Origin: Nitrospinota bacterium
GTDB taxonomy: Bacteria > UBA8248
Assembly: GCA_011523725.1 (NCBI GenBank)
Contig: WTGD01000348.1
Coordinates: 1-33,599, forward strand
Direction: 5' to 3'
Length of the DNA: 33,599 bases
Part shown: in pieces, positions 335 through 31,361 of the stretch
Position numbering within the stretch: position 1 is the first letter of the stretch
How the letters are laid out: the number at the start of each line of letters is the position of its first letter
The notes under the pieces: model-generated
What the model saw: only the letters and a program-made list of their open reading frames with translations
The model's database searches: none
Told to the model about the DNA's origin: nothing
Translations under genes and position numbers: made by a program

Positions 335-1801
335 CTAAGCGGGAGAAAGAGCAAGACGGCGCGTGAAAATATCTATCATTTCCCGGGCGGCGGGGGATAT
401 CTGCTCCTCCCCCCCTTCATAGATGGATGAGACGCCCTCGAGCTTACAGAACGCTCCCCTCGGCTCTACTATGGTGCCTTTCGCCGGGGGAGAGCAAGTG
501 ACAAGCACCTCGTCCTGGTCTTGAACGTCGCTCAGGCGATAACCCCGCCGGATGAATTCGGGCCTCCCGTTTTGGATGGCGTAGATGCCGGGTTCCAGCG
601 AGTCGCCGATTCGCACTCTTGAAAGACTCGTGTTTCGAATCAAAAGCTGGAAACCGGACAAATCCGGTCGGCTGAGATCGGCGGGCAAATCCTGATGCGC
701 GTCGAGCGCGGCGCCCGGCTTCAGGAATTCGGCCAAATGCCAAAATGTGGTGGTGGGTGCGCTGCCCTGGATTTCCTCGAGTTCGGTCATCAGTTGCGTG
801 GTTCCCAGCACGCGGGGGTTGAGTTCGAGAGCGTAGGGTTCGTCTCGATGGACGATGAAATCGACGCCGTATATTCCCCGGTAGCCCGCCTCGGCGATCC
901 ATTCTCCGATTTTCAGCGTGAATTCCTCGATTTTTCGCCGGCTCTCCAATGAAACCAGCCGATACGCCGCATAGTCGCTGCCTGCATAATCGAATCGGTG
1001 CATGGAGCAGCCGGGAATGCCCGTGAACATCACCGAAGGGTGGGACATCCAGGGCTTGCCGTTATAAATCAGCCCCGCCGTGCCGACGGCGGGACCGCTC
1101 AGAAACGTGCTCACGATCACCGGCGCATCAGGGCCCAGTGTTTCGATGAGTTCATCGCGTTTATTCGCGAGCGCCTCGGCCGAGTCGATGAGATGCGTCT
1201 GGTTGCCCGAGGAGCCGATTCGCTCCGAAATGATCATGACCGGCCCGAATTCTTCCAGATGCTTGAGTCCAAGATCGCCCAACGCCGCCACGTCGCCCGG
1301 GGGAACGTCGAACCCCGTTTCGACCGCCTGGCGCCGGAACGCTATCTTGTCGTCGAACCTCGTCTTGATTTCCACCGGGTTCGCCAGGATGCGGAGCCTG
1401 CCCTCGGCTTGTTCTGCGAGTTTGCCGAGGAATTCCGTGGAGCGGTAGGGGATGACGTACCGGGGCGTATCCCCTTGCGAGAGATATTGGCGAATCTGCT
1501 CACCCAGCGCGCCTTCGTAGGCCTCTACGAGCGATGAATGCGTCCATACGATTCGCCTGTTTCTCCCGCGCTCCACGGCGAAATAGCGCAGGCGCCTGTC
1601 CCATTCGGGCCCGTCGAGCCCGTAGTCGCAGGCGATGAGGAAATCGAGGGGGACGATGTTTTCCACCGTAATCGAATCGACCGCGCGCAGGCCCTGGAAA
1701 CCGAACGTCGCGCCGTCCGGAACGGCGGATATCAGGATGTCGTTGAAATCATTTTTCGTGTGAGAAGGCAAGGAAGGTGTTCCTTCACCGAGAATCATCA
1801 C
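335..1801 (-). CDS. ATP-grasp domain ligase (carboxylate-amine/peptide ligase type), substrate unknown
   Basis: 488-aa ORF. It carries the ATP-grasp core signature ...AGYRGIYGVDFIVHRDEPYALELNPRVLGTT..., preceded by a glycine-rich segment (ERIGSSGNQTHLI). It also has a ~130-aa N-terminal pre-ATP-grasp-like region and a ~120-aa C-terminal extension. Confidence 0.75.
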   Translation of the reverse strand: MMILGEGTPSLPSHTKNDFNDILISAVPDGATFGFQGLRAVDSITVENIVPLDFLIACDYGLDGPEWDRRLRYFAVERGRNRRIVWTHSSLVEAYEGALGEQIRQYLSQGDTPRYVIPYRSTEFLGKLAEQAEGRLRILANPVEIKTRFDDKIAFRRQAVETGFDVPPGDVAALGDLGLKHLEEFGPVMIISERIGSSGNQTHLIDSAEALANKRDELIETLGPDAPVIVSTFLSGPAVGTAGLIYNGKPWMSHPSVMFTGIPGCSMHRFDYAGSDYAAYRLVSLESRRKIEEFTLKIGEWIAEAGYRGIYGVDFIVHRDEPYALELNPRVLGTTQLMTELEEIQGSAPTTTFWHLAEFLKPGAALDAHQDLPADLSRPDLSGFQLLIRNTSLSRVRIGDSLEPGIYAIQNGRPEFIRRGYRLSDVQDQDEVLVTCSPPAKGTIVEPRGAFCKLEGVSSIYEGGEEQISPAAREMIDIFTRRLALSPA

Positions 1802-13518: not shown

Positions 13519-13680
13519 CTAGAAAGCGCCTTTGATGAGTTCGATGAACGTGTCGATGATTCCGTTGTCATAGAGCGTCCACGCCGTCACCACGACGACG
13601 AGCAGGAGAACGCTCAGGAGCAGATATTCGAGAAAGCCGTGCTTGACGGCGGCGGGTTTTGGGGGATTTCTTTTCGCCAT
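13519..13680 (-). CDS. small single-pass membrane protein (53 aa), hypothetical
   Basis: Not in the ORF track. Hand translation: MAKRNPPKPAAVKHGFLEYLLLSVLLLVVVVTAWTLYDNGIIDTFIELIKGAF. It has a basic N-terminus, one hydrophobic helix and GC-rich third positions. It lies upstream of, and on the same strand as, the hydrolase/SDR/flavin reductase genes. The RBS is weak (GGGAAA). Confidence 0.4.
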   Translation of the reverse strand: MAKRNPPKPAAVKHGFLEYLLLSVLLLVVVVTAWTLYDNGIIDTFIELIKGAF

Positions 13681-13867: not shown

Positions 13868-14446
13868 ATGGATTCTGCCAAACATAATTTCGGCGAAGTC
13901 AAACAAATCAGAACCGAAGCGATCGGCGTCGCGGGAAAGAGGATTTTCCGCATCCTGATCGATTGTCCCACGAAGGCGGCCGCCACGCTCTGGCTGGAGA
14001 AGGAACAGGTCTACGGCCTTTCGATGGCGATGAAAAAAATGGTGGAGGCGAAAGGGCAAGGGGAACGCTCGGACGAAGAACCGGATTTTCCCGACATTGC
14101 CGAGGTCGGCTCCACCCCGGTGAGTTCTGAAGGGTTGCTCGAATTCAAGGTGAGCCGATTGGGGCTGGCGTATGGCCCGGGCAAGAGCCACGTCACGGTC
14201 TTTTTCTACGATGAACGCGACGAGGTTGCTTCGGAGAGTGGTTCTTCCGAAACAGAGGAATACGAAGAAGAAACCGTCGGCCCCGCCGCGCTGCAGGTGA
14301 GTCTCGAACATGCGCAGTTGGATGACTTCATCACCCAGAGCCTCGATGAATGCTCCTCCGGGCGGGGTACGGATGCGCTCTCTCGTCATGCCATGGTGGC
14401 CACCGGTAAGGTCGACCCCAATACGAACGGGCATTTTCGTCACTAA
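13868..14446 (+). CDS. DUF3090-like protein (TIGR03847-type), function unknown
   Basis: 192 aa. As I recall the family, three segments match: the N-terminal half ...AIGVAGKRIFRILID....ATLWLEKEQVYGL..., the middle EFKVSRLGLAY, and the C-terminus ending ...DPNTNGH. The acidic linker is SESGSSETEEYEEE. The assignment is from memory and needs an HMM check. Confidence 0.7.
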   Translation: MDSAKHNFGEVKQIRTEAIGVAGKRIFRILIDCPTKAAATLWLEKEQVYGLSMAMKKMVEAKGQGERSDEEPDFPDIAEVGSTPVSSEGLLEFKVSRLGLAYGPGKSHVTVFFYDERDEVASESGSSETEEYEEETVGPAALQVSLEHAQLDDFITQSLDECSSGRGTDALSRHAMVATGKVDPNTNGHFRH

Positions 14447-14478
14447 ATCGCCCTTATTCTATTCGACAGGAATATCTC

Positions 14479-15264
14479 GTGGCCCGGAAATTTTCTCCTC
14501 CTGAAGGCCCCGAAACGGTGGATGCGGCCGAATCGCAGGCCTATCGCTTCGAGCCGGCGGAAATCGAGAACCTTTTGCTCAACTCGGAAATTCTGGGCGG
14601 CGAGTTGGTGCCGCAAGGCTCGAACTACACGTTCGCCGTGAGGATGGGCGCGGAGGATTTCCAGTTCTGGGGGATATACAAGCCCGCGAGCGGGGAGCGC
14701 CCCCTTTGGGATTTTCCCTACGGAACGCTCCATTTCAGGGAGCGGTGCTCTTTTCTGGTGAGTCATCATCTGGGATGGCACCTGGTTCCCCCGACGGTGA
14801 TTCGCGAGGGCCCGCACGGGGAGGGCTCCATGCAGCTGTGCGTGCCCTATGACGGGAAATCGAACTATTTCACGCTCCGGGCGGAAGGCCGACCGGAACT
14901 GGTGCTGATCGCTGCGTTTGACATCATGGTGAACAATACGGACCGCAAGGGAGGGCACTGCTTCCAGTCTGAAGACGGCCGCGTCTGGGGAATCGATCAC
15001 GGCCTCACGTTTCATGCAGAGCCCAAGCTGCGCACCGTCATCTGGGACTATGCGGGCGTTTCCCTGCCCGAGGCGCAGTTGAGCGACGTCAAAAGACTGG
15101 AGGCCGGCTTGCGCGATAGCGATAGCTCTTTGAGGCGTGAAATGGACGAGCTCCTGGAACCCGAGGAAGTGGAAATTTTTCTGGAAAGGGTGATCCGCTT
15201 CCGGAAGAATCCGTGCCTGCCGACGCCCGAGGAATACCGGCGACTGCACTGGCATTTCGAATAG
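14479..15264 (+). CDS. SCO1664-family protein (TIGR03843-type), PI3/PI4-kinase-like catalytic domain
   Basis: 261 aa with a GTG start. Family-like segments are ...PQGSNYTFAV....YKPASGERPLWDFPYGTLHFRERCSFLVSHHLGWHLVPPTV.REGPHGEGSMQ... The kinase-like catalytic loop is NNTDRKGGH and the metal-binding motif is GIDHGLTF (a DFG equivalent). Confidence 0.7.
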   Translation: MARKFSPPEGPETVDAAESQAYRFEPAEIENLLLNSEILGGELVPQGSNYTFAVRMGAEDFQFWGIYKPASGERPLWDFPYGTLHFRERCSFLVSHHLGWHLVPPTVIREGPHGEGSMQLCVPYDGKSNYFTLRAEGRPELVLIAAFDIMVNNTDRKGGHCFQSEDGRVWGIDHGLTFHAEPKLRTVIWDYAGVSLPEAQLSDVKRLEAGLRDSDSSLRREMDELLEPEEVEIFLERVIRFRKNPCLPTPEEYRRLHWHFE

Positions 15265-15309
15265 TTTCGAAAACGCCCGGGAAAACGGTGAGACGCTGAG
15301 GTGTAGGCG

Positions 15310-16626
15310 ATGCGCGCCCATACGAGCCTGACCGGGAATCGGCTGATTTCCTTTCTTATCTGCTTCGTTCTAAGCTCGACTCTCGTCGGGTGCCTGGAGA
15401 CTTCGCGCGTGCGCAGGAGGCCGCCGCGCGATATTATGAACGAAAAACGCTGGTTCGTTCACGACAACCCCGCTCATCCACAATCCAAGGTGTTTCTGGC
15501 GGAACTCGACGAGTTCGATTTTCAGCGAGCGAAACGGACACATTCGTCCCGCGCGTATAAGGAGTATCTGGAATATCATTTTACCGGCAAATACTTCCGC
15601 CGGGCGCGCTACTGGCGGGAGCAACTCCTGTATCAGGAAGCGCTCGGATCGAAAAAACCCGGCGTTCTCGAAGAGTTCCTGAAGCGCTTTCCCGAAGGCT
15701 GGTTCGAGACGCCCTCCGACATAGATACCCAAAAGAGTGAATATGAAGTTTTGAGAGGAAAAGACGAGGTCGCATCCTACAGGGTCTTTATTGAAAAATA
15801 CAAAAAGGCACGGAGCGAGTGGACCGAAGCGGCGACCCAGCGTCTCGAAAGACTCCTGCTCGATGCGGCGAAAGCCTCGGGCGATGTTCTCGGCCTCGAA
15901 AGGTTTGTCTTCGACAATCCCTTCAGCCCGTATCTTGAAGAGGCGAAGGACGCTTTGCGCGCGGCGGGATTCGAGAGGGCGATGCGATCCGGCAAGGAGG
16001 CGGACTGGAAGGCCTTCATTCGCAGATTCGAAGGCTCGAAAGAGGCGGCTCTCATGCAGCAACACATGGAGGCGCGGGCCCTTGCAGGAGCCAAGCGTTC
16101 GGGGCGAGTCGCGGCGCTGGAGCAGTTTCTCGTGCGCTACCCCGGTTCGGCGCACAAAGGGCGAATCCTCTCCTCCATCAACAAGATGGCGCAGGAGAGG
16201 AACCAACAGGTTCATCGGTGGGTGCGCGTGGAGAACGCCGAAGTCGAGGTGTTCCGGAAACCCAGATGCAAATCCTGCAGGCCCTATCTGCGCGCCCAGG
16301 GCGCTCTGCTCAATACGGACTCCGATTTTGCCTTCGACGTAGGCTTGCAGGTCGAACTCATCCGGAGCGGGAAAAAATGCTGCCGCACCAGGTACTGGCT
16401 CAGAGGTTTGAGACCCGGGGAGAGTCGTCCGTTTTCATTCCCGATACGCGGGAAATCTCCCAAAAGAGGCAGTCCTGCTCCCCGCTACGAAATCGAAGTG
16501 ATATCGGGCTCCGCGTATCGCAATCCACAGGAGGAGCGAATCATGGAAATCGAGGGTTTGGGCGGGAGAGGCAAGGGTCCCCAAAGCGATCGATTCGCGC
16601 CGGTACGAGTTCCCAATCTGAATTAG
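15310..16626 (+). CDS. lipoprotein with about six degenerate helical repeats (TPR/YbgF-like) and a Cys-containing C-terminal domain
   Basis: 438 aa. The signal peptide plus lipobox is ...FLICFVLSSTLVGC. The recurring ~35-aa motif is x-(Y/L)-x-x-F-(L/I)-x-x-(Y/F)-(P/x): AYKEYLEYHF, LEEFLKRFPEG, YRVFIEKYKK, LERFVFDNPFSPY, WKAFIRRFEGS, LEQFLVRYPGS. The C-terminal ~150 aa contains CKSC and CC. Confidence 0.7.
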   Translation: MRAHTSLTGNRLISFLICFVLSSTLVGCLETSRVRRRPPRDIMNEKRWFVHDNPAHPQSKVFLAELDEFDFQRAKRTHSSRAYKEYLEYHFTGKYFRRARYWREQLLYQEALGSKKPGVLEEFLKRFPEGWFETPSDIDTQKSEYEVLRGKDEVASYRVFIEKYKKARSEWTEAATQRLERLLLDAAKASGDVLGLERFVFDNPFSPYLEEAKDALRAAGFERAMRSGKEADWKAFIRRFEGSKEAALMQQHMEARALAGAKRSGRVAALEQFLVRYPGSAHKGRILSSINKMAQERNQQVHRWVRVENAEVEVFRKPRCKSCRPYLRAQGALLNTDSDFAFDVGLQVELIRSGKKCCRTRYWLRGLRPGESRPFSFPIRGKSPKRGSPAPRYEIEVISGSAYRNPQEERIMEIEGLGGRGKGPQSDRFAPVRVPNLN

Positions 16627-16703
16627 AATCTTTTTATATATCAGTGTGTTATGTAGCTTTATTGAAGTAATATAGAGATAATCATCCCGGTTCTCAGGGG
16701 ATG

Positions 16704-17606
16704 TTAGCGATTCTTTCGTTTGAGTCTGCGCCGGTTCACTTTCTTGATGTGTTTCGCGATGTAATTCACGAGAGCGGGGTTGCCGATAAGCAGGGATTGT
16801 CGCCATTTGCGCGCGGCGTCCAGGTCTTTGGGCGTGTTCTCCCCGGAGAAGAAGCTATCCAGTTCGCTCCACCTGTTCGTGCGGTCCCGCCGGGCGAGTG
16901 TGACGCCCCCCGCTTCTTTCACGATGACCGCGCCCGCCGCCACATCCCAGATGCTGGGAACGCCGAAGAGCGTATAGTGCAGGCCGCCGCGCGCCACGAG
17001 AGCCTGCTCGTAGCACATCGAGCCCGTGGCGCGCACCTCACCCAGGTTTTTCTTGAGCGGCCCCGTGGGGCGAAATTGCGTCCAGTATGAGCCGGGGAGC
17101 GCAACGATGCGCTTTCCCGTGGGCTTGTCCTCTCCCGCCACCTCGATTCGGTGATCGTTGCGATACGCTCCGCCCCCCTCAAAAGCGTGGTAGATGGTGC
17201 CTTTCTCCTCCGGCGTGAAAATCGCGCCCGCAATCGAGCGTCCGCGCTGCAGGACTCCCACGGAACACCCCCAGACGTGCAGGCCGTTCAGAAAATTCTT
17301 CGTGCCGTCCAGAGGGTCCAGAACCCAGAGATACTCGGGCACTTCGCGCGCGCCCTGCGCTTTGGCTTCTGCTTCGTCTTCGGGTTTTTCCTCGCCCAAA
17401 ACGCCATGCGCCGGAAATTTTTCGTTTATCGCTTTGGTCAGAAACTCCTGGCTCGCGCGGTCGGCTTCGCTCACCGGGTCGGTTTTGGCCTTGTTCTTGT
17501 AGTCCACCTCCACCTGCTTCCCGAAAAGCCCCATCAGGATTTCTCCCGCCTCGCGGGCGAATCTGGAAGCGGCTTCGGCCAACTCGCGGGGAGCAGGGTC
17601 GTTCAT
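16704..17606 (-). CDS. inositol monophosphatase family protein (SuhB/CysQ-like phosphatase)
   Basis: 300 aa. IMPase motifs are ...DPVSEADRASQ..., ...LWVLDPLDGTKNFLNG... and ...WDVAAGAVIVKEAGG... It has an unusually basic C-terminal tail, KKVNRRRLKRKNR. The start overlaps the upstream stop (ATGA). Confidence 0.9.
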   Translation of the reverse strand: MNDPAPRELAEAASRFAREAGEILMGLFGKQVEVDYKNKAKTDPVSEADRASQEFLTKAINEKFPAHGVLGEEKPEDEAEAKAQGAREVPEYLWVLDPLDGTKNFLNGLHVWGCSVGVLQRGRSIAGAIFTPEEKGTIYHAFEGGGAYRNDHRIEVAGEDKPTGKRIVALPGSYWTQFRPTGPLKKNLGEVRATGSMCYEQALVARGGLHYTLFGVPSIWDVAAGAVIVKEAGGVTLARRDRTNRWSELDSFFSGENTPKDLDAARKWRQSLLIGNPALVNYIAKHIKKVNRRRLKRKNR

Positions 17607-18652
17607 TGTCCACGCTCCAGCGGAGGGAGGTCGAGCCTTCGGGCGATTTCATCGAGTTCCGCAAGCCGCTCGGGCGAGAGTTCGAACCCGTTTTCCCTGC
17701 GTTCTATCTCGCTTTGATGCTCGATTTCGCCGGGCATGAAAATCGTCTCCACACCCGCGGCTTTGGGCGTCGCCTTGATGACGGAGATGAAGGCGCCTGC
17801 GGCGGCCCGGAACTCAGATATCGGAAGCAGCGCTTCGACGTTGATGGCGGCGAAAACGCTCGTGACGCGGCTTTTCCCGTGAAACTCGTTGATGCCCACG
17901 ATCTCGTGGCTGTGGCCTCCGCCCGCGAGGGAACCCAGAATGGCGTCGATCGCGATGGAAAGCCCGCTGCCCTTATACCCCGCAATCGGGGAGAGCAGGG
18001 AGCTTTCGAGAACTTGATGGGGGTCGGTGGTGGGTCTTCCCTCCTTGTCCAGTCCCCAGCCCTCGGGAATGAGTTCGCCCGCGCGCGCCGCCTCGATGAT
18101 GTAGCCTCGCGCCACGACGGAGAGCGCCATGTCCAGCACCATGGGCGGGTCGCTCGGCAGGGCGATAGAGACGGGATTGTTGCCGATTCTGGGTTCCTTG
18201 CCTCCTGCCGGGGGCAGGACGCGCAGCGTGTTCGTCGTGACGAGACCGACCATGCCCGCTTCGGGAGCCATGGCCGCGTACGTCGCGGCGGCGCCGAAAT
18301 GGTTGCTCTCCTTGAGCAGGACGACGCCCACGTTGTGGGTTCGGGCGCGGGCGATGGCCTCTTCCATCGCGCGTTTGGAGACCACCTGGCCCATGCCGTT
18401 GTCGCCGTCTGCGAGCGCGAGTGCGCCTGCATCCTTGACGATGCGGAAATCAGGCGCCGGATTCGCCAGCTTGACCTCCAGACGCCTGGCGTAGTGCGGC
18501 ATGCGGATCACGCCGTGGCTGGTGACGCCACGCAACTCGGCCGTCACGAGCGTATCCGCCGTCCATGCCGCGTCCCCTTCCGGCATGCCCAGCTTGGTGA
18601 ATACCCGGTTCAAAAAAACTTGGAGTTTCTCGCCTGTCGTATGTCCGCTCAT
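17603..18652 (-). CDS. Ldh_2 family (malate/L-lactate/sulfolactate dehydrogenase type 2) oxidoreductase
   Basis: 349 aa. The N-terminal hallmark ...TADTLVTAELRGVTSHGVIRMPHYARRL... and ...SNHFGAAATYA... are typical of the Ldh_2 family. Confidence 0.9.
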   Translation of the reverse strand: MSGHTTGEKLQVFLNRVFTKLGMPEGDAAWTADTLVTAELRGVTSHGVIRMPHYARRLEVKLANPAPDFRIVKDAGALALADGDNGMGQVVSKRAMEEAIARARTHNVGVVLLKESNHFGAAATYAAMAPEAGMVGLVTTNTLRVLPPAGGKEPRIGNNPVSIALPSDPPMVLDMALSVVARGYIIEAARAGELIPEGWGLDKEGRPTTDPHQVLESSLLSPIAGYKGSGLSIAIDAILGSLAGGGHSHEIVGINEFHGKSRVTSVFAAINVEALLPISEFRAAAGAFISVIKATPKAAGVETIFMPGEIEHQSEIERRENGFELSPERLAELDEIARRLDLPPLERGQ

Positions 18653-19225
18653 TCACTCCTCACGCGTGAACAGATAGGCCATTCCGTGCCGGACGTGCTC
18701 GCCCGAGTCGACTTCGCTCAGAAAATCAGACCGCGAAACCGACCAGCGGTTCACCTCGTTTAATTCCCGCACGCTCCAGCCGGGCGCTTCCCAAAGCGCT
18801 TCGCTCCCGGCGTAGCCCGGCCCCCCCTGCACCACCGCCAGATACCAACGGATGCTCCTCGCACCCAATATCTGTCGCTCGGCGCCTGAATCATACGGCA
18901 GCCAGCAGGAGAACACGAAATCGGGTGCGTGAGCGATGAGCGCATCCCGCGCGTCCAGGGCTTCGGTTCCATCGCTTCCGGCGGGGTCGGTGAGTTTCAG
19001 GTTCACGCCGCGCGCCTTGAGCGCTTTTCCGATCGCCCCGTCGCCGGCTGCCACTTCCAGGGGCGATTCGGGAGCAAGGGCCAGGATTTCCTCCCCAAGC
19101 GCATTCAGCCACTCGACCACGGGAAGCTGGTAGAGGTTTTCCCTCTCGCAGTAAACGAGCCAGCCGTCCCCCCGCTCTTCTTCGGCGAGCATCGCGACCG
19201 CCTCGGCGTAGGGAAGGGGATTCAT
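18653..19225 (-). CDS. hypothetical protein with a class I SAM-methyltransferase-like fold (tentative)
   Basis: The track ORF starts at TTG 19255. I prefer ATG 19225 (AGAGG upstream), giving 190 aa. It has a motif-I-like PLEVAAGDGAIG, followed by an acidic residue after the next strand (LKLTD). Its stop directly abuts the Ldh_2 start (TGAATG). Confidence 0.55.
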   Translation of the reverse strand: MNPLPYAEAVAMLAEEERGDGWLVYCERENLYQLPVVEWLNALGEEILALAPESPLEVAAGDGAIGKALKARGVNLKLTDPAGSDGTEALDARDALIAHAPDFVFSCWLPYDSGAERQILGARSIRWYLAVVQGGPGYAGSEALWEAPGWSVRELNEVNRWSVSRSDFLSEVDSGEHVRHGMAYLFTREE

Positions 19226-19314
19226 CTTATGGCCTCTGGCAATGAACATCTGCAATGCCAGCCGCGTGAAACAAACCCCCGGAGGGCGTCCTCCGGGGGC
19301 CGGTGATGAATCTC

Positions 19315-20523
19315 CTAGACGCTGGGCCCATTCCTGTTGATGGCGAAGGCGTTGTCTTCGTGCAGAATCTCGGCTTTCGTCATCTTCCCGCTCGCGACTT
19401 CTATCACCTCGTCATAGACGCGTCGTCCCGCCACCTCGATGGGCGCGCCCTCGAAGATGTCCGTCACGTCCACGTCCGTGGTATCGGCCTGCAGCTTCGC
19501 CGAGAGCGGGTTGCCCGTGATGCGGATGGTGCTCATCAGAGGGTGGTTGATGGTATGTCCGCCGCCCGTGGAGAAGATGAGCACTTGAGAGCCGCCCGCC
19601 GCGATGCCGGTAATGGACTCTCCCCCGTGGCCCGGGGTGTCCATCACGTGGAGGCCGCTTCTGCGGTTCGCGCGCTTCGCCCACGGAATCACGTCCACGA
19701 TGGGGGCGGAGCCCGCCTTCTGGATGGCGCCCAGGGATTTCTCTTCAATCGTGGTCAGGCCGCCCTCCATGTTGTCGCCCGTGGGCTGGCTGCCCCTGAG
19801 GTCGACGCCGCAGGCGAGGATGCGTTCTTCCATCTCCTCCACCATCCTCCAGATGCGCTTGCCCAGGGCCGGCCTCACGCATTTGTCGGCCAGCACGCCC
19901 TCGCCGCCCATCATCTCCGTGGTTTCGGCCAAAAGCGCGCGTCCGCCCAGCTTGACGACCTGATCCGTCACCCAGCCGGTGGCCTTGTTGTGCGAGAGGC
20001 CCGACGTGGTGTCCGACGTTCCGCAGTTGAGCCCCAGCAGGAGCTTGCTCACCGAAACTTCCTGGCGGCGTTCGTTCGTGAGTTCTCTCAACATCTCCAT
20101 GCCGATGCGCGTGGCCTTGGCGGTGGCGTCTATCGCGCCGCCGTCCTCGCGGATGTTGATCGCCTCCACGCGTTTTCCCGTTTTGGCGATTTCATGGGCG
20201 ATCTCGTCCGCCGTGCAGCCTTCCTCGCGGTGGTGATCGATGACGATGACGGCGCCCGCGTTGGCGTTCTGTCCGTGACCGACGAGGGTCTCGAACGTGC
20301 GCTGGATGTCGGGGCCGATCTGGCAGCGGCCCAGCGGGTGGGTGAGGGCGACGCTATGGCGCAGGGTTCTGGCGACGCGCTCACACGTGGGGTTGGCGTA
20401 AAGGGTGCCGCTCAGCACGAGCAGGTAGTTTCTCGCGCCCACGTCCCCGTTTTCCCTGGGGTATCCCCACCAGGTTTTTCTCAGACGTTTCGATCTCGTA
20501 GCGCTTCCGTTTCTTCCGGCCAT
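19315..20523 (-). CDS. UxaA-family hydro-lyase, large (catalytic) subunit; SuyB / altronate-galactarate dehydratase C-terminal-domain-like
   Basis: 402 aa. ...WWGYPRENGDVGARNYLLVL....THPLGRCQ... and the rest of the protein resemble the C-terminal domain of the UxaA/GarD family. A strong SD (AAGGAGG) lies 15 nt after the small-subunit stop. Confidence 0.85.
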   Translation of the reverse strand: MAGRNGSATRSKRLRKTWWGYPRENGDVGARNYLLVLSGTLYANPTCERVARTLRHSVALTHPLGRCQIGPDIQRTFETLVGHGQNANAGAVIVIDHHREEGCTADEIAHEIAKTGKRVEAINIREDGGAIDATAKATRIGMEMLRELTNERRQEVSVSKLLLGLNCGTSDTTSGLSHNKATGWVTDQVVKLGGRALLAETTEMMGGEGVLADKCVRPALGKRIWRMVEEMEERILACGVDLRGSQPTGDNMEGGLTTIEEKSLGAIQKAGSAPIVDVIPWAKRANRRSGLHVMDTPGHGGESITGIAAGGSQVLIFSTGGGHTINHPLMSTIRITGNPLSAKLQADTTDVDVTDIFEGAPIEVAGRRVYDEVIEVASGKMTKAEILHEDNAFAINRNGPSV

Positions 20524-20538
20524 GGTGGACCTCCTTCT

Positions 20539-20832
20539 CTAAGCGAGGTCGCCGCGGCCGCGGGCGCTCTCTATGTTGTGTACGTGAATGTAGTCGCCCA
20601 CCTCGATGTCCTTGCTCGCCACGCCGATGGACAGGCCGTATTTCATGCAGTGCTCGCCCTTTTTCAGGGGCTTGATGCAGATTTTGTGGATGTAGGGAAT
20701 CGACTGATTGGCCTTGAGCGTCTTGCCCATCTTGCCGTTGAGCATGAGGCGAACCGAGCCTCCCTTCACCACCTTTTCGAGACAGGTGGCGACGTTGTCT
20801 CCTTTTTCGATGATCATGGCAGTTACCGGCAT
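20539..20832 (-). CDS. UxaA-family hydro-lyase, small SAF-domain subunit (SuyA-like)
   Basis: 97 aa. ...KGDNVATCLEKVVKGGSV....IPYIHKICIKPLKKGEHCMKYGLSIGVASKDIEVGDYIHVHN... matches the SAF/N-terminal domain of UxaA-type dehydratases, here encoded as a separate polypeptide. The SD is AAGGAGAAG. Confidence 0.85.
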   Translation of the reverse strand: MPVTAMIIEKGDNVATCLEKVVKGGSVRLMLNGKMGKTLKANQSIPYIHKICIKPLKKGEHCMKYGLSIGVASKDIEVGDYIHVHNIESARGRGDLA

Positions 20833-20968
20833 GTCTTCTCCTTCAAAAATTCAGGGCGCGAAAACCCTCGCACCCAATCACGTGACGGATAATTGAGGAA
20901 CGTCCAATCAACGAGCCATAAAACTAGCGCATGGGGGCCGACACTTCAACAAAGGCGGGGGTTTTTCA

Positions 20969-22024
20969 TTACGCCCGGCCCCTGGACAAGGGCGCCACGC
21001 CCACCTCCGCCGCTATCCGGTCCATATCCTGCGCGAGCGCTTCTTTGATCGTGATGCCCTCGGTGAGCGCAGCTTTATATCTGCGGTGAGCGCCTTCGCC
21101 GGGGATGCGAATTTCATCGAAGCCGGGTGCGAGTCCCGAAGCTTTGATGCGCGTCACGGCCTCATCCACGGCCGCCTTGTAGTCGCCGCCCAGGCATCTC
21201 TCCGGGTCTATCGCCATGGCGAACATCGGCAGTCCGAAGGGCTTGTCCGTCTCCAGCCAGTCGGGCTGATCGGCGTCGAAACCGTTGCCCGAAAGCGCGC
21301 CCGTCAGGAAGGTGAACATGAGCGCCAGACCATATCCCTTGTAATCGCCCAGGGGCAGCATCGTTCCCCTGGCGGCGAGGGCGGCGTCCGTGGTCGGGTT
21401 GCCCGCAGGGTCAAGCGCCCAGCCCTCGGGAATCGGCTCACCCGTCCTGGCGGCCAGGAGCACATAGCCTCTCGCCACCTTGGAGGTGGCGATGTCGAAG
21501 AGGATGGGATATTCCTGGTTCGAGGGTACCGCGAAGGCGACCGGGTTGTTCCCGATCATTCTCTCGAAACCGCCCCACGGGGCGAGATTTCCCACCGCGC
21601 CGCTGATGACCACCCCGATCATGCCGTGCTCGAGCGCCATCGCGGCGAAATAGCCGATGTGGCCCGTGTGTGAGGATTTGCGGATCGCGGTAGCGCCGAT
21701 GCCGCCGGCTTTCGCCTTTTCGATGGCGACCTCCATGGCGCGCCGCGCGACGACGGCGCTCATGCCGTAGTCCCCATCCAGCAGAGAAAAGGCGGGCAGA
21801 TCGGTGATTGTTCGCACATGGGGTTTCGAGTTCGCCGTTCCTTTTTTAAGACGCTCCACGAAGACCCCGAAGCGAACGCACCCATGCGAGCTTACGCCCC
21901 TCAGCTCGGCGTCCACAATCTGGGCCGCACACGCATTGGCGTCCGCCTCGGGCAAGCCGAGAGCCTGATAGACGCGCGCGAGATAGGCATGGAGGTCTTT
22001 CGCATGCACCTTGATGTCCGGCAT
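20969..22024 (-). CDS. Ldh_2 family oxidoreductase (second copy)
   Basis: The track ORF starts at TTG 22060. I use ATG 22024 (GGGGAGAAAAA upstream), giving 351 aa. The hallmark is ...AAQIVDAELRGVSSHGCVRFGVFVERL...SSHTGHIGYFA... Confidence 0.9.
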   Translation of the reverse strand: MPDIKVHAKDLHAYLARVYQALGLPEADANACAAQIVDAELRGVSSHGCVRFGVFVERLKKGTANSKPHVRTITDLPAFSLLDGDYGMSAVVARRAMEVAIEKAKAGGIGATAIRKSSHTGHIGYFAAMALEHGMIGVVISGAVGNLAPWGGFERMIGNNPVAFAVPSNQEYPILFDIATSKVARGYVLLAARTGEPIPEGWALDPAGNPTTDAALAARGTMLPLGDYKGYGLALMFTFLTGALSGNGFDADQPDWLETDKPFGLPMFAMAIDPERCLGGDYKAAVDEAVTRIKASGLAPGFDEIRIPGEGAHRRYKAALTEGITIKEALAQDMDRIAAEVGVAPLSRGRA

Positions 22025-22151
22025 TTTTTCTCCCCGCGCGGGCTTGAAAGCCGCGCGCAAACAAATCCCCGGCTTCGTCTTGGCGGATGGGGAAAAGAGT
22101 GTTAAGAGCTATTGCGGTGAGTTTGCCTTTATACATGGAGGATTCGCAAGC

Positions 22152-29994: not shown

Positions 29995-31361
29995 CTACTT
30001 CATTCCGATGGCGTCGATCTGGACCAGCGATTCCGCGACCGGGCCGGGGCCATGCACGATTACGCACTCGAACGCGGGCAGGTCCTCTCCGATGAAGGTC
30101 TCGCGAACCGACTCGTAGATCGCGAGGTCGGCCGGGTCGGAAAGATACACCCTGGTCATCGCGATATCCGCGAGGTCCATTCCCGCGTCTGCAACACTGA
30201 CGCGCAGTTGCTCCCATGCCATCCAGCATTGCGCGGCGAGCCCCGGCTTTCGCTCCATCTCCTCGAGCGCAAGCGCAACATTCCTCCCCGACTCTGGCAA
30301 GGCGTCTGCACTCCGGACAAGCGCTCCCGCCTCGTCGACCCCCACCATACCCGAAAAGAAACAAACCGGCCCCGCCTGCGTGATGGCAGGCGCAGCAAAG
30401 GTCGCCGCTCCTTGCCATGGGAATGATTGACGGACGAGTCCGCTTTTCCGATCCATGGCGGTGATTTCGATCTCGATACGCGTGCCGCGGTGGCCTACCT
30501 CGTCGAATCCCACGACGCAAAGCGATGGCTGGACTTCGGCGAAGAAATGGGTGTGCACCCGGTGAAACGTGGAAAAATCGCGCAGGTCGCCTAGGAAAAT
30601 CGACACGTTTACGACGTCTTCCATGTCCATGCCATGACCCGCCAGCGTGCGGCGCAGTTCGTTGTAGACGTACCAGGTCTGGGACGCGATGGGGCCGTGG
30701 CGACTGTCGGGGTGGCTGCGTCCCGTCGATAGGAAACGACCCTCTTCGGGCACGTCGTCATAAGAGTTGACCAGCGGCTTTCCGGGTTCCGCGGTCTTGA
30801 TGGGAATGTGGCCCGCGAAGAAGGCGAACGGTCCCGAGCGAATCGCTTGGCAGTAGTGTGAGGCCGCAGGCAGGTCCGAGTTGTATACGTCGGTCAGAAC
30901 CTGTCGTTCACCGAACACGCCGCCGGCTTGCGTGCAGGCGGCGATGGCGTCGACCAGTGGCTGCCGCGACCAATTACGTCCGTAACGCCCAGTCCGCTGC
31001 TGGGAGCGGGCGTCGGCTGCCATTGCACCCGTACTTGTTCATAGCTGGGAAAGTAGCGCTTGTCGCGCTGCCAGATGTGCTGGCGCAGGACCTGGTCGCG
31101 GTGCGTGCCCGCTGCGACGAGAATTTTTTCGAGGCTATCGTGAACCGCCCAGGAGTCTGCAACGACGCGGCCTTCGGTGAGATCGGCGAGTGGATAGCCC
31201 TGCATCTGCTCGCGCCCCGCTTCGGGCAGGTCCGCGAATCCTGCCGGACCGTTGGGCCTTAAACCCGAGACGAATAACAGTTCACCGGCCTTGACCGCCA
31301 CCGGATAGGACGGGAAAGCGGGGGTCACATCCTCACAAACGATAGGGGTTTTCTTCATCAC
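29995..31361 (-). pseudogene. three-domain RidA/YjgF/UK114-family protein, read in two overlapping frames (apparent frameshift near 30955-30985; genuine or assembly error)
   Basis: ORF 30894..31361 encodes RidA-like domain 1 up to ...PAPSSGLGVTDVIGRGS. The expected domain end (...LVDAIAAC) is found in the other frame, inside the N-terminus of ORF 29995..31023. That second ORF then encodes two more RidA-like domains, ending ...GTRIEIEITAM and ...ESLVQIDAIGMK. Confidence 0.6.

What the first reader, a model, noticed from the sequence alone, without database searches (positions are those of the whole stretch)
13868..16626. DUF3090-like + SCO1664-type PI3/PI4-kinase-like gene pair followed by a repeat lipoprotein: a conserved module with no assigned function
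Seen in sequence:
- Three same-strand genes are separated by gaps of 32 and 45 nt.
- The second protein keeps a lipid/protein-kinase-like catalytic loop (NNTDRKGGH) and a DFG-equivalent (IDHG), so it looks catalytically competent.
- The first is a ~190-aa two-lobed protein with an acidic linker.

Established knowledge, recalled from memory:
- The TIGR03847 (DUF3090) and TIGR03843 (SCO1664 family) proteins form a conserved dyad, mainly in Actinobacteria.
- There they usually sit with a histidine-phosphatase-type 'phosphomutase' (MSMEG_4193 family) near mshC and cysQ.
- I know of no described biochemical function for any of them.

What differs here:
- The dyad sits in what, judging by the neighbouring genes, looks like a non-mycothiol context.
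- The phosphomutase partner is absent from the window.
- A TPR-like lipoprotein follows instead.

Inference: this is a kinase plus a substrate or adaptor, possibly feeding an envelope-associated function.
Basis: partly seen in the sequence, partly recalled or inferred. Interest (0 to 1): 0.7.

Follow-up and report, generated by a model that had tools for sequence, protein, structure and literature searches.

The report
Uncharacterised kinase module, Nitrospinota variant
This is a diverged Nitrospinota copy of a widespread bacterial gene pair of unknown function (a PI4-kinase-like enzyme plus a small partner protein), and here its usual phosphatase partner is replaced by an inositol-monophosphatase-family gene next door.

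Summary
Three same-strand ORFs lie at the stated coordinates, with 32- and 45-nt gaps.

- **ORF B** is a full SCO1664-family protein: TIGR03843 scores 248 bits against a cut-off of 172. Its catalytic residues are invariant. Its model is closest to human type II PI4-kinase.
- **ORF A** is a divergent DUF3090. It passes the Pfam threshold but fails the TIGR03847 cut-off. It is an internal duplication of a four-strand-plus-helix unit and lacks the family's usual CxxC…HxC knuckle.
- **ORF C** is a basic lipoprotein with YbgF/BamD-like helical repeats and a four-cysteine C-terminal domain. Full-length relatives appear only in Nitrospinota-type contigs.

In a census of 83 loci, 46 carry the triad MSMEG_4193 histidine phosphatase–DUF3090–kinase. 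An IMPase-family gene lies convergent to the kinase in 13 of the 36 loci without that phosphatase, and in 0 of the 47 with it.

My preferred reading is a cytosolic small-molecule phosphorylation/dephosphorylation module, with DUF3090 as a ligand-binding partner. This is an inference. No substrate is known for any family member. The link to the lipoprotein and the envelope is lineage-specific and unproven.

The parts
13868..14446 (+). ORF A: divergent DUF3090 protein (192 aa, pI 4.8). It is an internal duplication of a four-strand-plus-helix unit with an acidic disordered loop (aa 116-139). It ends in a conserved Cys-less tail, SGRGTDALSRHAMVATGKVDPNTNGHFRH.
   Evidence: PF11290 scores 56.7 bits. 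TIGR03847 scores 46.9 bits, below the 117.25 cut-off. Alignment of 33 homologues. Model pLDDT 72.5. hhalign of the N-half against the C-half gives 82% probability. Family-wide invariants are G20, G23, R25, F27, E44, K45, L51, G165 and R166. C-terminal tail variants are listed.
14479..15264 (+). ORF B: SCO1664-family atypical kinase (261 aa, pI 5.2) with a type-II-PI4K-like fold. The ATP-binding lysine (K68), the catalytic loop NNTDRKGGH (152-160) and the DFG-equivalent IDHG (172-175) are all intact.
   Evidence: TIGR03843 scores 248.2 bits against a cut-off of 172.4. Invariant residues are listed. Model pLDDT 83.4. The top PDB match by Foldseek is human PI4KIIalpha 4hnd (E=3e-7, TM 0.56-0.58), followed by Fam20, CtkA and HipA. 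A profile search against PDB sequences gives FAM20A at E=0.005 and PI4K2B at E=0.12.
15310..16626 (+). ORF C: lineage-specific basic lipoprotein (438 aa, pI 9.9). It has the lipobox LVGC (C28), YbgF/BamD-like helical repeats (about aa 60-290), and a C-terminal domain (about aa 300-438) with four invariant cysteines (C320, C323, C357, C358).
   Evidence: Only 39 homologues were found, and the few that carry a source name are Nitrospinota or Nitrospinaceae. Alignment. CpoB TPR match at E=0.0015. Only about 6 full-length clusters exist among 1.84 billion representatives, but 6418 proteins share the repeat. It keeps the same position in 8 Nitrospinota-type loci.
16704..17606 (-). IMPase-family phosphomonoesterase (300 aa), convergent to ORF C. 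It is the probable phosphatase partner of the dyad in this lineage. Its start overlaps the stop of the upstream Ldh_2 gene by 4 nt.
   Evidence: PF00459 scores 164.8 bits. The best NCBIfam hits, HisN and CysQ, are far below their cut-offs. The DPLDGT and WDVAAG metal and substrate motifs are present in the translation. It is 33-43% identical to the kinase-adjacent IMPases of Dehalococcoidia loci, with BLASTP scores of 127-231 bits; the best solved IMPase scores 94 bits in a separate phmmer search. It sits next to the kinase in 13 of 36 loci without the histidine phosphatase and 0 of 47 loci with it. It is also present in L085, L086, L090 and L091.

Best explanation
**Shown.** The window carries the Nitrospinota version of the widespread DUF3090-SCO1664 module.
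- ORF B is a soluble, catalytically intact, ATP-dependent phosphotransferase with a type-II-PI4-kinase-like fold.
- ORF A lies 32 nt upstream and is probably co-translated with it. It is an internally duplicated partner protein built from two four-strand-plus-helix units.
- The only family-wide invariant polar residues of ORF A are R25, E44, K45 and R166.
- ORF A has a highly conserved tail that the model predicts with low confidence.

**Inferred.**
- The module works with a dedicated phosphomonoesterase. In most lineages this is the co-directional MSMEG_4193 histidine phosphatase. In the branch that includes this window it is the IMPase-family enzyme encoded convergently at 16704-17606.
- Two unrelated small-molecule phosphatase families occupy the partner role, and DUF3090 has no conserved hydroxyl or histidine acceptor. 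I therefore think the module most likely phosphorylates and later dephosphorylates a small hydroxyl-bearing metabolite, of sugar, inositol or nucleotide type.
- In this model DUF3090 binds or presents the substrate, or performs the intermediate step. It is not itself the phospho-acceptor.
- The lipoprotein ORF C is a Nitrospinota-specific addition to the transcription unit. Its link to the module's chemistry is unproven.
For: **Family and fold.**

**The dyad is conserved.**
- DUF3090 lies directly upstream of the kinase, on the same strand, in 62 of 85 loci.
- The loci span Chloroflexota, Actinomycetota, Dormibacterota, Rokubacteria and Nitrospinota-type genomes.

**The phosphatase partner.**
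- TIGR03848 is confirmed above its cut-off on the upstream gene.
- It is present in 47 of 83 loci.
- An orthologous IMPase subfamily is convergent to the kinase in 13 of the 36 loci lacking it and in 0 of the 47 having it. Fisher's exact p = 4e-6, without correction for phylogeny.
- In a neighbour-joining tree of the kinases, the IMPase-linked loci sit on 5-6 deep branches of the half that lacks the histidine phosphatase.
- In L086 the IMPase gene stands alone next to the kinase, so the adjacency is not a side effect of the Ldh_2 operon.
- One locus, L077, encodes a single-ORF fusion of the histidine phosphatase and DUF3090.

**DUF3090 as a binding partner.** DUF3090 has no invariant Ser, Thr, Tyr or His, and its invariants are Arg, Glu, Lys, Arg and glycines.

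**General knowledge.** IMPase-superfamily enzymes are known only as small-molecule phosphomonoesterases. This is established knowledge and was not tested here.
Against: - No substrate is known for any family member, and nothing here identifies one.
- The structural neighbours of the kinase include true protein kinases (Fam20C, CtkA, HipA) as well as lipid kinases.
- In this window the IMPase start overlaps the Ldh_2 stop by 4 nt. It is therefore transcribed with a different, convergent operon.
- The mutual exclusion of the two phosphatases may reflect only a few evolutionary events. The IMPase-linked loci come from Dehalococcoidia and Nitrospinota-type genomes only.
- 21 of 83 loci have the kinase with neither partner adjacent.
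- The DUF3090 model has only moderate confidence (pLDDT 72.5), and its fold matches are not significant.
- The phosphatase-DUF3090 fusion is a single case from a metagenome-assembled genome.
Confidence: 0.4

Rival explanations
1. Protein phospho-switch. The kinase phosphorylates DUF3090, or a client that DUF3090 recruits, and the adjacent phosphatase resets it. This would resemble the partner-switching kinase/antagonist/phosphatase triads.
For: - The self-contained three-gene order phosphatase-small protein-kinase occurs in 46 loci, with no other recurrent neighbour.
- The kinase's structural neighbours include the protein kinases Fam20C, CtkA and HipA.
- The DUF3090 tail is extremely conserved but modelled with low confidence, as expected for a segment that docks on a partner.
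- Some histidine-phosphatase-superfamily members are protein phosphatases. This is general knowledge and was not tested here.
Against: - No Ser, Thr, Tyr or His is conserved across the three tail types or elsewhere in DUF3090.
- In this lineage the partner is an IMPase-family enzyme. No protein phosphatase is known in that superfamily.
- 21 loci have the kinase without an adjacent DUF3090. In four loci a DehI-like protein occupies its place.
Confidence: 0.2
2. Inositol-lipid or inositol-headgroup kinase. ORF B phosphorylates phosphatidylinositol or a related inositol conjugate, and the IMPase or histidine phosphatase removes an inositol phosphate.
For: - The best structural match is type II PI4-kinase, and the catalytic-loop and DFG-equivalent motifs are of the PI4KII type.
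- The partner here belongs to the inositol monophosphatase family, and the closest solved relatives are IMPase, FBPase and SuhB.
- In cultured Actinobacteria the family sits next to mshC, which belongs to an inositol-containing thiol pathway (PMC4255298).
- The mycobacterial PIP phosphatase is still unidentified (bioRxiv 10.64898/2026.07.15.738315).
Against: - No inositol-phosphate synthase, CDP-alcohol phosphatidyltransferase or mycothiol gene was found among the window ORFs scanned.
- ORF B is a minimal 261-aa acidic protein. No membrane-binding insert is evident in its sequence or predicted secondary structure; this was not specifically tested.
- IMPase-family membership does not fix the substrate: HisN and CysQ score as well as IMPase does.
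- The tools used here did not let me check whether Nitrospinota make inositol lipids.
Confidence: 0.12
3. The three co-directional genes form one functional unit that feeds an envelope process through the lipoprotein.
For: - The A-B-C order, with short gaps, is kept in all 8 Nitrospinota-type loci examined, down to about 40% identity in ORF C.
- No convincing terminator was detected between ORF B and ORF C.
Against: - ORF C has full-length homologues only in this lineage.
- Elsewhere the kinase is followed directly by the IMPase gene or by unrelated genes.
- ORFs A and B have no signal peptide or transmembrane segment evident in their sequences (not run through a predictor) and are acidic, whereas ORF C is exported.
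- Conserved order inside one lineage may simply be inherited.
Confidence: 0.1
4. Nucleic-acid-directed module. DUF3090 is a PUR/Whirly-like single-strand binding platform, usually with a zinc knuckle. The kinase and phosphatase act on nucleic-acid or nucleotide ends.
For: - The only fold matches of the DUF3090 model are PUR-alpha repeats I-II (E=0.08-0.15, TM 0.42/0.53), which share the same duplicated four-strand-plus-helix topology.
- Canonical members carry a CxxC…HxC knuckle (PMC9425974).
- Occasional neighbours include PRPP synthase, a 5'-nucleotidase and a metallophosphoesterase.
Against: - The fold matches are not significant.
- The protein is acidic (pI 4.8).
- The knuckle is dispensable: it is lost in the Nitrospinota and Anaerolineae variants.
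- No nucleic-acid enzyme recurs in the neighbourhood.
Confidence: 0.06

Closest known systems
Actinobacterial/Chloroflexal triad TIGR03848 (MSMEG_4193 phosphomutase-like) - TIGR03847 (DUF3090) - TIGR03843 (SCO1664). From memory, examples are Rv2135c-Rv2134c-Rv2133c and SCO1666-1664.
   Same: - The kinase family is the same, scoring above the curated cut-off.
- The DUF3090-then-kinase order and strand are the same.
- The kinase keeps the same invariant catalytic residues.
   Different: - There is no histidine phosphatase. An IMPase-family gene lies convergent downstream instead.
- DUF3090 is only 25-30% identical to non-Nitrospinota members. It fails the TIGR03847 cut-off and has lost the CxxC…HxC knuckle.
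- A lipoprotein gene is inserted after the kinase.
- There is no mshC or mycothiol context.
- The function of the reference triad is itself unknown. Only Rv2135c has been shown to be an acid phosphatase on an artificial substrate (PMC3866925, listed).
Eukaryotic type II phosphatidylinositol 4-kinases (PI4KIIalpha/beta)
   Same: - They are the best structural match.
- The catalytic-loop (N-T-D-R) and I-D-x-G motifs are of the same type.
- Many homologues carry a weak PF00454 hit.
   Different: - Sequence identity is about 18%.
- ORF B itself has no PF00454 hit.
- ORF B is about 100 residues shorter than the PI4KII catalytic domain. From memory of PI4KII structures, it also lacks the palmitoylated membrane insert.
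- A His (H160) stands where I recall PI4KII having the loop Asn.
- The substrate is unknown.
Atypical secreted or bacterial protein kinases of the same fold group: Fam20A/C, Helicobacter pylori CtkA, HipA
   Same: The bilobal atypical-kinase fold is similar, with TM 0.39-0.59. FAM20A is the best profile-to-sequence hit in the PDB (E=0.005).
   Different: There is no signal peptide (unlike Fam20) and no toxin-antitoxin-like context (unlike HipA). The family is vertically conserved and very large: 7930 hits at E<=1e-5 among 8000 candidates.
PUR-alpha / Whirly / PC4-like duplicated four-strand-plus-helix nucleic-acid-binding fold
   Same: The duplicated four-strand-plus-helix topology is the same. 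PUR-alpha repeats are the only fold hits.
   Different: The matches are not significant (E>=0.08). The protein is acidic, and no sequence similarity is detectable.
CpoB/YbgF and BamD/YfiO TPR proteins of the Gram-negative envelope
   Same: The helical-repeat region of ORF C matches the CpoB TPR domain (E=0.0015) and BamD (E=0.46). A close homologue has weak PF13525 and PF13174 hits. ORF C carries a lipobox, as BamD does.
   Different: All matches are below the family thresholds. ORF C has an extra C-terminal four-cysteine domain. It lies in neither a Tol-Pal nor a Bam context.
IMPase superfamily enzymes (SuhB/IMPase, CysQ, HisN, archaeal FBPase/IMPase)
   Same: PF00459 scores 164.8 bits and the metal-binding motifs are intact.
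   Different: No equivalog reaches its cut-off: HisN scores 127.6 against 275, and CysQ scores 104 against 229. The protein forms its own kinase-adjacent subfamily with the Dehalococcoidia proteins.

Membership tests
SCO1664 family (NCBIfam TIGR03843) | Whole-protein HMM score above the curated cut-off of 172.4 bits | tested here: met
   248.2 bits, E=8e-74
SCO1664 family (NCBIfam TIGR03843) | Conserved kinase core: ATP-binding Lys, catalytic loop D-R-K-x-x-H, and I-D-H-G | tested here: met
   K68, D155, R156, K157, H160, D173 and G175 are invariant in 43 sequences. Motif positions are given.
SCO1664 family (NCBIfam TIGR03843) | Encoded directly downstream of a DUF3090 gene | tested here: met
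   The gap is 32 nt on the same strand. The same arrangement occurs in 62 of 85 loci.
DUF3090 (Pfam PF11290) | Score above the Pfam gathering threshold of 27 bits | tested here: met
   56.7 bits, covering residues 6-167
TIGR03847 subfamily of DUF3090 | Score above the curated cut-off of 117.25 bits | tested here: not met
   46.9 bits
TIGR03847 subfamily of DUF3090 | C-terminal CxxC…HxC putative metal knuckle (PMC9425974) | tested here: not met
   The tail is SGRGTDALSRHAMVATGKVDPNTNGHFRH and has no Cys pair. Only the G-R and N-G elements are retained.
Canonical three-gene module (TIGR03848 + TIGR03847 + TIGR03843) | MSMEG_4193-type histidine phosphatase gene directly upstream | tested here: not met
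   No hit to the phosphatase HMM anywhere in the 33.6-kb window. The upstream neighbour is a divergent alpha/beta hydrolase.
Canonical three-gene module (TIGR03848 + TIGR03847 + TIGR03843) | Linkage to mshC or mycothiol genes (PMC4255298) | tested here: not met
   No such gene was found among the window ORFs scanned. It was also not seen among nine downstream ORFs tested in actinobacterial MAG loci.
PI3/PI4-kinase catalytic domain (Pfam PF00454) | Pfam hit to the catalytic domain | tested here: not met
   No hit at E<=0.01 for ORF B. Many homologues carry precomputed hits, and at least one of these is marked weak.
PI3/PI4-kinase catalytic domain (Pfam PF00454) | Type II PI4K-like three-dimensional fold | tested here: met
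   The top Foldseek hits are 4hnd, 4hne and 4pla, with E from 3e-7 to 1e-6 and TM 0.49-0.58. The query is a predicted model, not a solved structure.
PI3/PI4-kinase catalytic domain (Pfam PF00454) | Phosphorylates the inositol ring of phosphatidylinositol | not testable with these tools
   This needs an enzyme assay.
Bacterial lipoprotein | Signal peptide ending in a lipobox L-x-x-C with a conserved Cys | tested here: met
   The N-terminus reads …SSTLVGC, and C28 is invariant in 16 homologues.
TPR (YbgF/BamD type) repeat protein | Significant hit to a TPR-clan model | tested here: inconclusive
   There is no Pfam hit for ORF C. A profile search against the PDB finds CpoB at E=0.0015. A homologue has PF13525 at 25.1 bits against a cut-off of 25. 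The repeat region recurs up to 11 times in other proteins.
IMPase family (Pfam PF00459) | Pfam hit plus the DPxDGT and WDxAAG motifs | tested here: met
   164.8 bits. The motifs LDPLDGT and IWDVAAG are in the translation.
HisN / CysQ / SuhB equivalogs | Score above the equivalog cut-off | tested here: not met
   HisN 127.6 against 275.15; CysQ 104.1 against 228.8; IMPase PRK10757 69.1 against 332.

The most novel reading that the evidence does not exclude
The SCO1664/DUF3090 pair, together with its interchangeable phosphatase (histidine-phosphatase type or IMPase type), is a still-undescribed phospho-metabolite pathway shared by Actinomycetota, Chloroflexota, Nitrospinota and their relatives. 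One possibility is a bacterial inositide or sugar-headgroup kinase/phosphatase system. In Nitrospinota it would have been rewired, through a Cys-less DUF3090 tail and a co-transcribed periplasmic lipoprotein, to act on or signal to the envelope.
Probability: 0.2. Interest if true: 0.75.

Novelty: new variant of a known kind. Interest (0 to 1): 0.45.

Why it matters
**Size of the gap.** The SCO1664 family is one of the larger kinase-fold families in bacteria with no assigned substrate.
- About 8000 relatives were recovered in a search that was capped at 8000 candidates.
- A review lists it as a signature protein of Actinobacteria (PMC4255298).
- From memory, it is also present in Mycobacterium tuberculosis as Rv2133c.

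**What this analysis adds.**
- The family splits into two architectural types that use unrelated phosphatases.
- DUF3090 is an internal duplication whose zinc knuckle is dispensable.
- The kinase can occur without an adjacent DUF3090.

**Consequences.** These points narrow the hypotheses toward small-molecule phospho-metabolism. They also give concrete experiments in tractable hosts such as M. smegmatis and Streptomyces.

**Limits.** The window itself is one more member from an uncultured lineage and does not reveal the substrate.

Tried and rejected
- **Gene calling.** A greedy longest-ORF caller on the fetched loci picked antisense ORFs in these high-GC sequences and even missed the window's own genes. 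I replaced it with HMM searches over all ORFs.
- **PDB sequence searches.** Single-sequence searches for ORFs A, B and C found nothing useful. The ORF A profile also found nothing.
- **Other libraries.** There were no PADLOC defence-system hits, no Rfam families and no tRNAs in the window.
- **Promoter and terminator scan.** The counts were no higher than in shuffled sequence, so it says nothing on co-transcription.
- **Repeats in ORF C.** Self-BLAST found no internal repeats. The repeat nature appeared only in the profile search.
- **Literature.** Searches for DUF3090, SCO1664, the TIGR numbers and Rv2133c-Rv2135c found only passing mentions and one paper on Rv2135c phosphatase activity. A search for bacterial type II PI4K homologues found nothing relevant.
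- **Upstream gene in four Dehalococcoidia loci.** I tested whether the 275-aa gene was a diverged DUF3090. It is not (hhalign probability 0.2%). It is DehI-like.
- **Apparent long DUF3090 ORFs.** L066 turned out to be an artefact of extending the ORF to the longest in-frame start. L007, L039 and L051 look like the same artefact, because their N-terminal extensions have no phosphatase-domain hit. Only L077 is a real fusion of the phosphatase and DUF3090.
- **mshC check.** I looked for mshC downstream of the kinase in actinobacterial MAG loci. None was found among the nine ORFs tested. This was not exhaustive.
- **Toxin-antitoxin reading.** I rejected a HipA-like toxin-antitoxin interpretation because the family is large, vertically conserved and lacks a TA-like context.

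Full report
**1. The observation**

The three ORFs exist as described.
- ORF A is 13868-14446 (192 aa).
- ORF B is 14479-15264 (261 aa, GTG start).
- ORF C is 15310-16626 (438 aa).

All are on the + strand. They are separated by 32 and 45 nt, and each has a Shine-Dalgarno-like sequence upstream. G+C is about 57-59% across the region, with no compositional break.

ORF B scores 248.2 bits on TIGR03843, 'SCO1664 family protein', against a cut-off of 172.4. ORF A scores 56.7 bits on PF11290 (DUF3090) against a gathering score of 27. It scores only 46.9 bits on TIGR03847, whose cut-off is 117.25. ORF C matches no Pfam or NCBIfam model.

**2. The kinase-like protein (ORF B)**

About 8000 relatives were retrieved, and 7930 of the 8000 scored candidates have E<=1e-5. 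Those that carry names come from Nitrospinota, Tectomicrobia and Chloroflexota.

In an alignment of 43 sequences going down to 43% identity, the residues expected of an active kinase are invariant:
- S48 and N49, in the GSNYTF glycine-loop equivalent;
- Y67, K68 and P69;
- G72 and E73;
- D148;
- N152, N153, D155, R156, K157 and H160;
- D173 and G175.

The AlphaFold2 model has a mean pLDDT of 83.4. Its best PDB matches are human PI4KIIalpha and PI4KIIbeta (E from 3e-7 to 1e-6, TM 0.49-0.58). Next come Fam20A/C, H. pylori CtkA, class I/III PI3Ks, Legionella MavQ and HipA. At the sequence-profile level only weak hits appear: FAM20A at E=0.005 and PI4K2B at E=0.12.

PF00454 does not hit ORF B itself, but it is recorded on many homologues.

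The conclusion is that ORF B is a catalytically competent atypical kinase of the PI4KII/Fam20/CtkA fold group. The fold does not reveal whether the substrate is a lipid, a sugar or a protein.

**3. DUF3090 (ORF A)**

Only 46 close homologues were found, all carrying PF11290.

The model has a pLDDT of 72.5 and shows two four-strand-plus-helix units:
- strands 4-43 followed by helix 45-63;
- strands 88-115 and 140-147, with helices 116-123 and 148-163.

An acidic loop at residues 116-139 and the last roughly 28 residues are predicted with low confidence.

A profile-profile comparison of the two halves over 61 family members gives 82% probability and E=1e-5. It aligns the last strand and the start of the helix, 'vtlxiEKeQ' against 'vrxwxtrxQm'. 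The protein is therefore an internal duplication. This probably explains why JGI names it a 'repeat protein'.

The only fold matches are PUR-alpha repeats I-II, with E=0.08-0.15 and TM 0.42/0.53. That is suggestive of a PC4/PUR/Whirly-like platform but is not significant.

Across 61 DUF3090 sequences from the fetched loci, the invariant residues are G20, G23, R25, F27, E44, K45, L51, G165 and R166. Q47, N187 and G188 are conserved at 90% or more. No Ser, Thr, Tyr or His is conserved family-wide.

The C-terminus comes in three forms:
- the canonical form, GRPxCPxCGxPxDPxGHxCPRxNGH, which is the CxxC…HxC motif noted in PMC9425974;
- a short Anaerolineae form, GR(A/P)DPxQNGRxxYYWT;
- the Nitrospinota form found here, SGRGTDALSRHAMVATGKVDPNxNGHFxH.

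The Nitrospinota form has no Cys pair, yet it is almost invariant within its clade. The putative zinc knuckle is therefore dispensable. Only the G-R and N-G elements are universal.

**4. The lipoprotein (ORF C)**

- Its 39 detectable homologues are unnamed or named Nitrospinota or Nitrospinaceae.
- The lipobox cysteine C28 is invariant, as are four cysteines in the C-terminal domain: C320, C323, C357 and C358.
- The protein is strongly basic (pI 9.9), whereas ORFs A and B are acidic.
- Its profile weakly matches the TPR domain of CpoB/YbgF (E=0.0015) and BamD.
- In a search of 1.84 billion representative proteins, only about six clusters match over the full length.
- In the same search, 6418 proteins match the helical region (profile positions about 60-290), often in up to 11 copies per protein.
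- A close homologue has borderline YfiO and TPR_6 hits.

'Repeat lipoprotein, TPR-like' is therefore a fair description. As a whole protein, it is lineage-specific.

**5. Synteny inside the lineage**

The window's kinase is encoded identically on a 1.53-Mb ENA contig and on one other contig (L088 and L089). A metagenome-assembled genome in GTDB carries a 97% identical copy (L005).

In eight Nitrospinota-type loci the order DUF3090-kinase-lipoprotein is kept. These loci are the window, L001, L005, L085, L088/L089, L090, L091 and L092. Across them, kinase identity falls to 56%, ORF A to 38% and ORF C to about 40%.

In seven of the eight, an IMPase-family gene follows on the opposite strand. Beyond it lies an operon of Ldh_2, a roughly 200-aa protein, an altronate/galactarate dehydratase-like gene, a roughly 97-aa protein and a second Ldh_2. 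In L091 the IMPase gene is present but split, so it was not called.

**6. Census outside the lineage**

A pattern scan of one genome per GTDB species returned 80 loci. Most are from Chloroflexota, with some from Actinomycetota, Dormibacterota and Rokubacteria.

I used HMMs built in-session over all ORFs of 83 non-redundant loci. The loci fall into these classes:

| Class | Loci |
|---|---|
| Histidine phosphatase, DUF3090 and kinase, all co-directional | 46 |
| Histidine phosphatase and kinase only | 1 |
| DUF3090 and kinase, no histidine phosphatase | 15 |
| Kinase with neither partner adjacent | 21 |

The upstream phosphatase gene scores above the TIGR03848 (MSMEG_4193 family) cut-off in all four cases tested.

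After clustering all neighbouring ORFs, only one further recurrent neighbour emerged: an IMPase-family gene convergent to the kinase.
- It is present in 13 of the 36 loci without the histidine phosphatase and in 0 of the 47 with it.
- Fisher's exact p is 4e-6, without correction for relatedness.
- Outside Nitrospinota these loci are from Dehalococcoidia or unclassified Chloroflexota. There the two genes are 2-172 nt apart in most cases, with no lipoprotein between them.
- The window's IMPase is 33-43% identical to these proteins, with BLASTP scores of 127-231 bits. The best solved IMPase scores 94 bits in a separate phmmer search. They therefore form a distinct subfamily.
- No equivalog (HisN, CysQ or SuhB) reaches its cut-off.

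In a crude neighbour-joining tree of the kinases, the histidine-phosphatase triads form one large clade. The IMPase-linked loci are spread over five or six deep branches of the remainder, and the Nitrospinota group is one of those branches.

Other loci add detail:
- In L086, from a 2.9-Mb genome, the order is PRPP synthase (overlapping the next gene), DUF3090, kinase, and then a convergent stand-alone IMPase gene.
- L087 shows the classical histidine-phosphatase triad followed by a 5'-nucleotidase.
- L077 encodes a single ORF that joins a complete MSMEG_4193-type domain (residues 1-203) to a complete DUF3090 (residues 226-386).
- In four Dehalococcoidia loci, a DehI-like 275-aa protein unrelated to DUF3090 occupies the slot upstream of the kinase.

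**7. What it most likely is and does**

*Shown:*
- a catalytically intact PI4KII-fold kinase;
- a tightly linked, duplicated partner protein with a conserved Arg/Glu/Lys/Arg set;
- a phosphatase partner that differs between two ancient architectural types.

*Inferred:* the module phosphorylates, and at another step dephosphorylates, a small metabolite. DUF3090 would bind or present the substrate, or perform the intermediate step.

The reasons for this inference are as follows.
- Replacement of one phosphomonoesterase family by an unrelated one is typical of metabolic pathways.
- No IMPase-superfamily enzyme is known to act on proteins. This is general knowledge and was not tested here.
- DUF3090 has no conserved phospho-acceptor residue.
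- The kinase can occur without an adjacent DUF3090.

The weaknesses are as follows.
- The fold group includes true protein kinases.
- The start of the window's IMPase gene overlaps the stop of the Ldh_2 gene by 4 nt (16704-17606 against 17603-18652). It therefore belongs to the convergent operon's transcript.
- The mutual-exclusion pattern may rest on only a few evolutionary events.
- No substrate can be named.

I put this reading at about 0.4. The rivals are:

| Rival | Confidence |
|---|---|
| Protein phospho-switch | 0.2 |
| Inositol-lipid or inositol-headgroup kinase | 0.12 |
| Nucleic-acid-directed module | 0.06 |

**8. Comparison with what is known**

The families are catalogued, but no function is assigned in anything I could find.
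- PMC4255298 notes only that SCO1664 is always next to mshC in the actinobacterial genomes surveyed.
- PMC9425974 notes the CxxC…HxC motif.
- PMC3866925 studies Rv2135c as a histidine-phosphatase-superfamily enzyme.
- A July 2026 preprint still calls the mycobacterial PIP phosphatase 'long-sought' and proposes a different protein, EphE.

The window ORFs scanned include no mycothiol or inositol-lipid genes. One Tectimicrobiota locus has a solo kinase 3.6 kb from a PIG-L protein. That protein just reaches the MshB cut-off, scoring 225.1 against 224.35. A thiol-pathway link outside Actinobacteria therefore cannot be excluded, although it is not seen here.

**9. Verdict**

The locus is a new variant of a known but uncharacterised module. 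It has three distinguishing features:
- a Cys-less DUF3090;
- an IMPase-type phosphatase partner in place of the histidine-phosphatase type;
- a lineage-specific lipoprotein.

It does not reveal the function of the family. The two-architecture pattern is nevertheless a usable lead for experiments in model Actinobacteria.

Noticed in passing
window 13519-13680 (-): A 53-aa ORF, MAKRNPPKPAAVKHGFLEYLLLSVLLLVVVVTAWTLYDNGIIDTFIELIKGAF, has one hydrophobic helix. It lies in the 440-nt spacer upstream of DUF3090. A 50-57-aa minus-strand gene is called at the same place in L002, L088, L089, L090 and L092.
   Followed up: partly
window 16704-22060 (-): A conserved minus-strand operon runs Ldh_2, a 97-aa protein, an altronate/galactarate-dehydratase-like gene (GD_AH), a 200-aa protein with no family, a second Ldh_2, and the IMPase gene. 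The best NCBIfam hit for the IMPase-proximal Ldh_2 (17603-18652) is L-sulfolactate dehydrogenase at 269 bits, below its cut-off of 500. The IMPase start overlaps the Ldh_2 stop by 4 nt. The same operon is present in L001, L085, L088 and L090.
   Followed up: partly
window 15310-16626, residues about 300-438 of ORF C: The C-terminal domain of the lipoprotein has four invariant cysteines, arranged as CxxC and then CC (C320, C323, C357, C358). It matches no family. It could be a periplasmic metal-binding or disulfide domain. A copper P-type ATPase and an HMA chaperone lie about 3.2-5.6 kb upstream.
   Followed up: no
L077 6714-7895 (+), Candidatus Aquidulcis sp. MAG: A single 393-aa ORF fuses a complete MSMEG_4193-type histidine phosphatase (residues 1-203) to a complete DUF3090 (residues 226-386). 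It is a possible Rosetta-stone fusion. Only one example was found.
   Followed up: partly
L036, L057, L072 and L081, directly upstream of the kinase: In four Dehalococcoidia loci a 275-300-aa DehI-like protein (PF10778, 39.5 bits) sits where DUF3090 normally is. The IMPase gene is still convergent downstream. The protein is not homologous to DUF3090.
   Followed up: partly
L010-L016, L023, L025, L027, L031, L035, L041, L055 and L075 (mostly Anaerolineae and other Chloroflexota): A third DUF3090 tail type is found in these loci. It is short and Cys-less, reading GR(A/P)DPxQNGRxxYYWT, and it occurs together with the histidine phosphatase.
   Followed up: no
L003 1786-8777 (Candidatus Tectimicrobiota MAG): A solo SCO1664 kinase lies 13 nt after a class-V aminotransferase. 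Upstream are a PIG-L deacetylase, a HIT-family protein and a two-domain GNAT. The PIG-L protein scores 225.1 on TIGR03445 (MshB, cut-off 224.35) and 243.9 on Mca. This hints at a mycothiol-like thiol pathway outside Actinobacteria.
   Followed up: partly
L086 5555-8852: A PRPP synthase gene overlaps the start of DUF3090 by 8 nt. Downstream are the kinase and a stand-alone convergent IMPase gene. The locus comes from a 2.9-Mb genome of unknown taxon.
   Followed up: no
window 16627-16703: The 77-nt convergent spacer between the lipoprotein and IMPase genes is strikingly AT-rich in a genome of about 59% G+C. It is probably a bidirectional termination region. The simple scan called no terminator there.
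   Followed up: no
window 29995-31023 (-) and 335-1801 (-): A 342-aa protein has two RidA/L-PSP stretches. A 488-aa protein has a weak ATP-grasp_3 hit. Both are unrelated to the finding.
   Followed up: no
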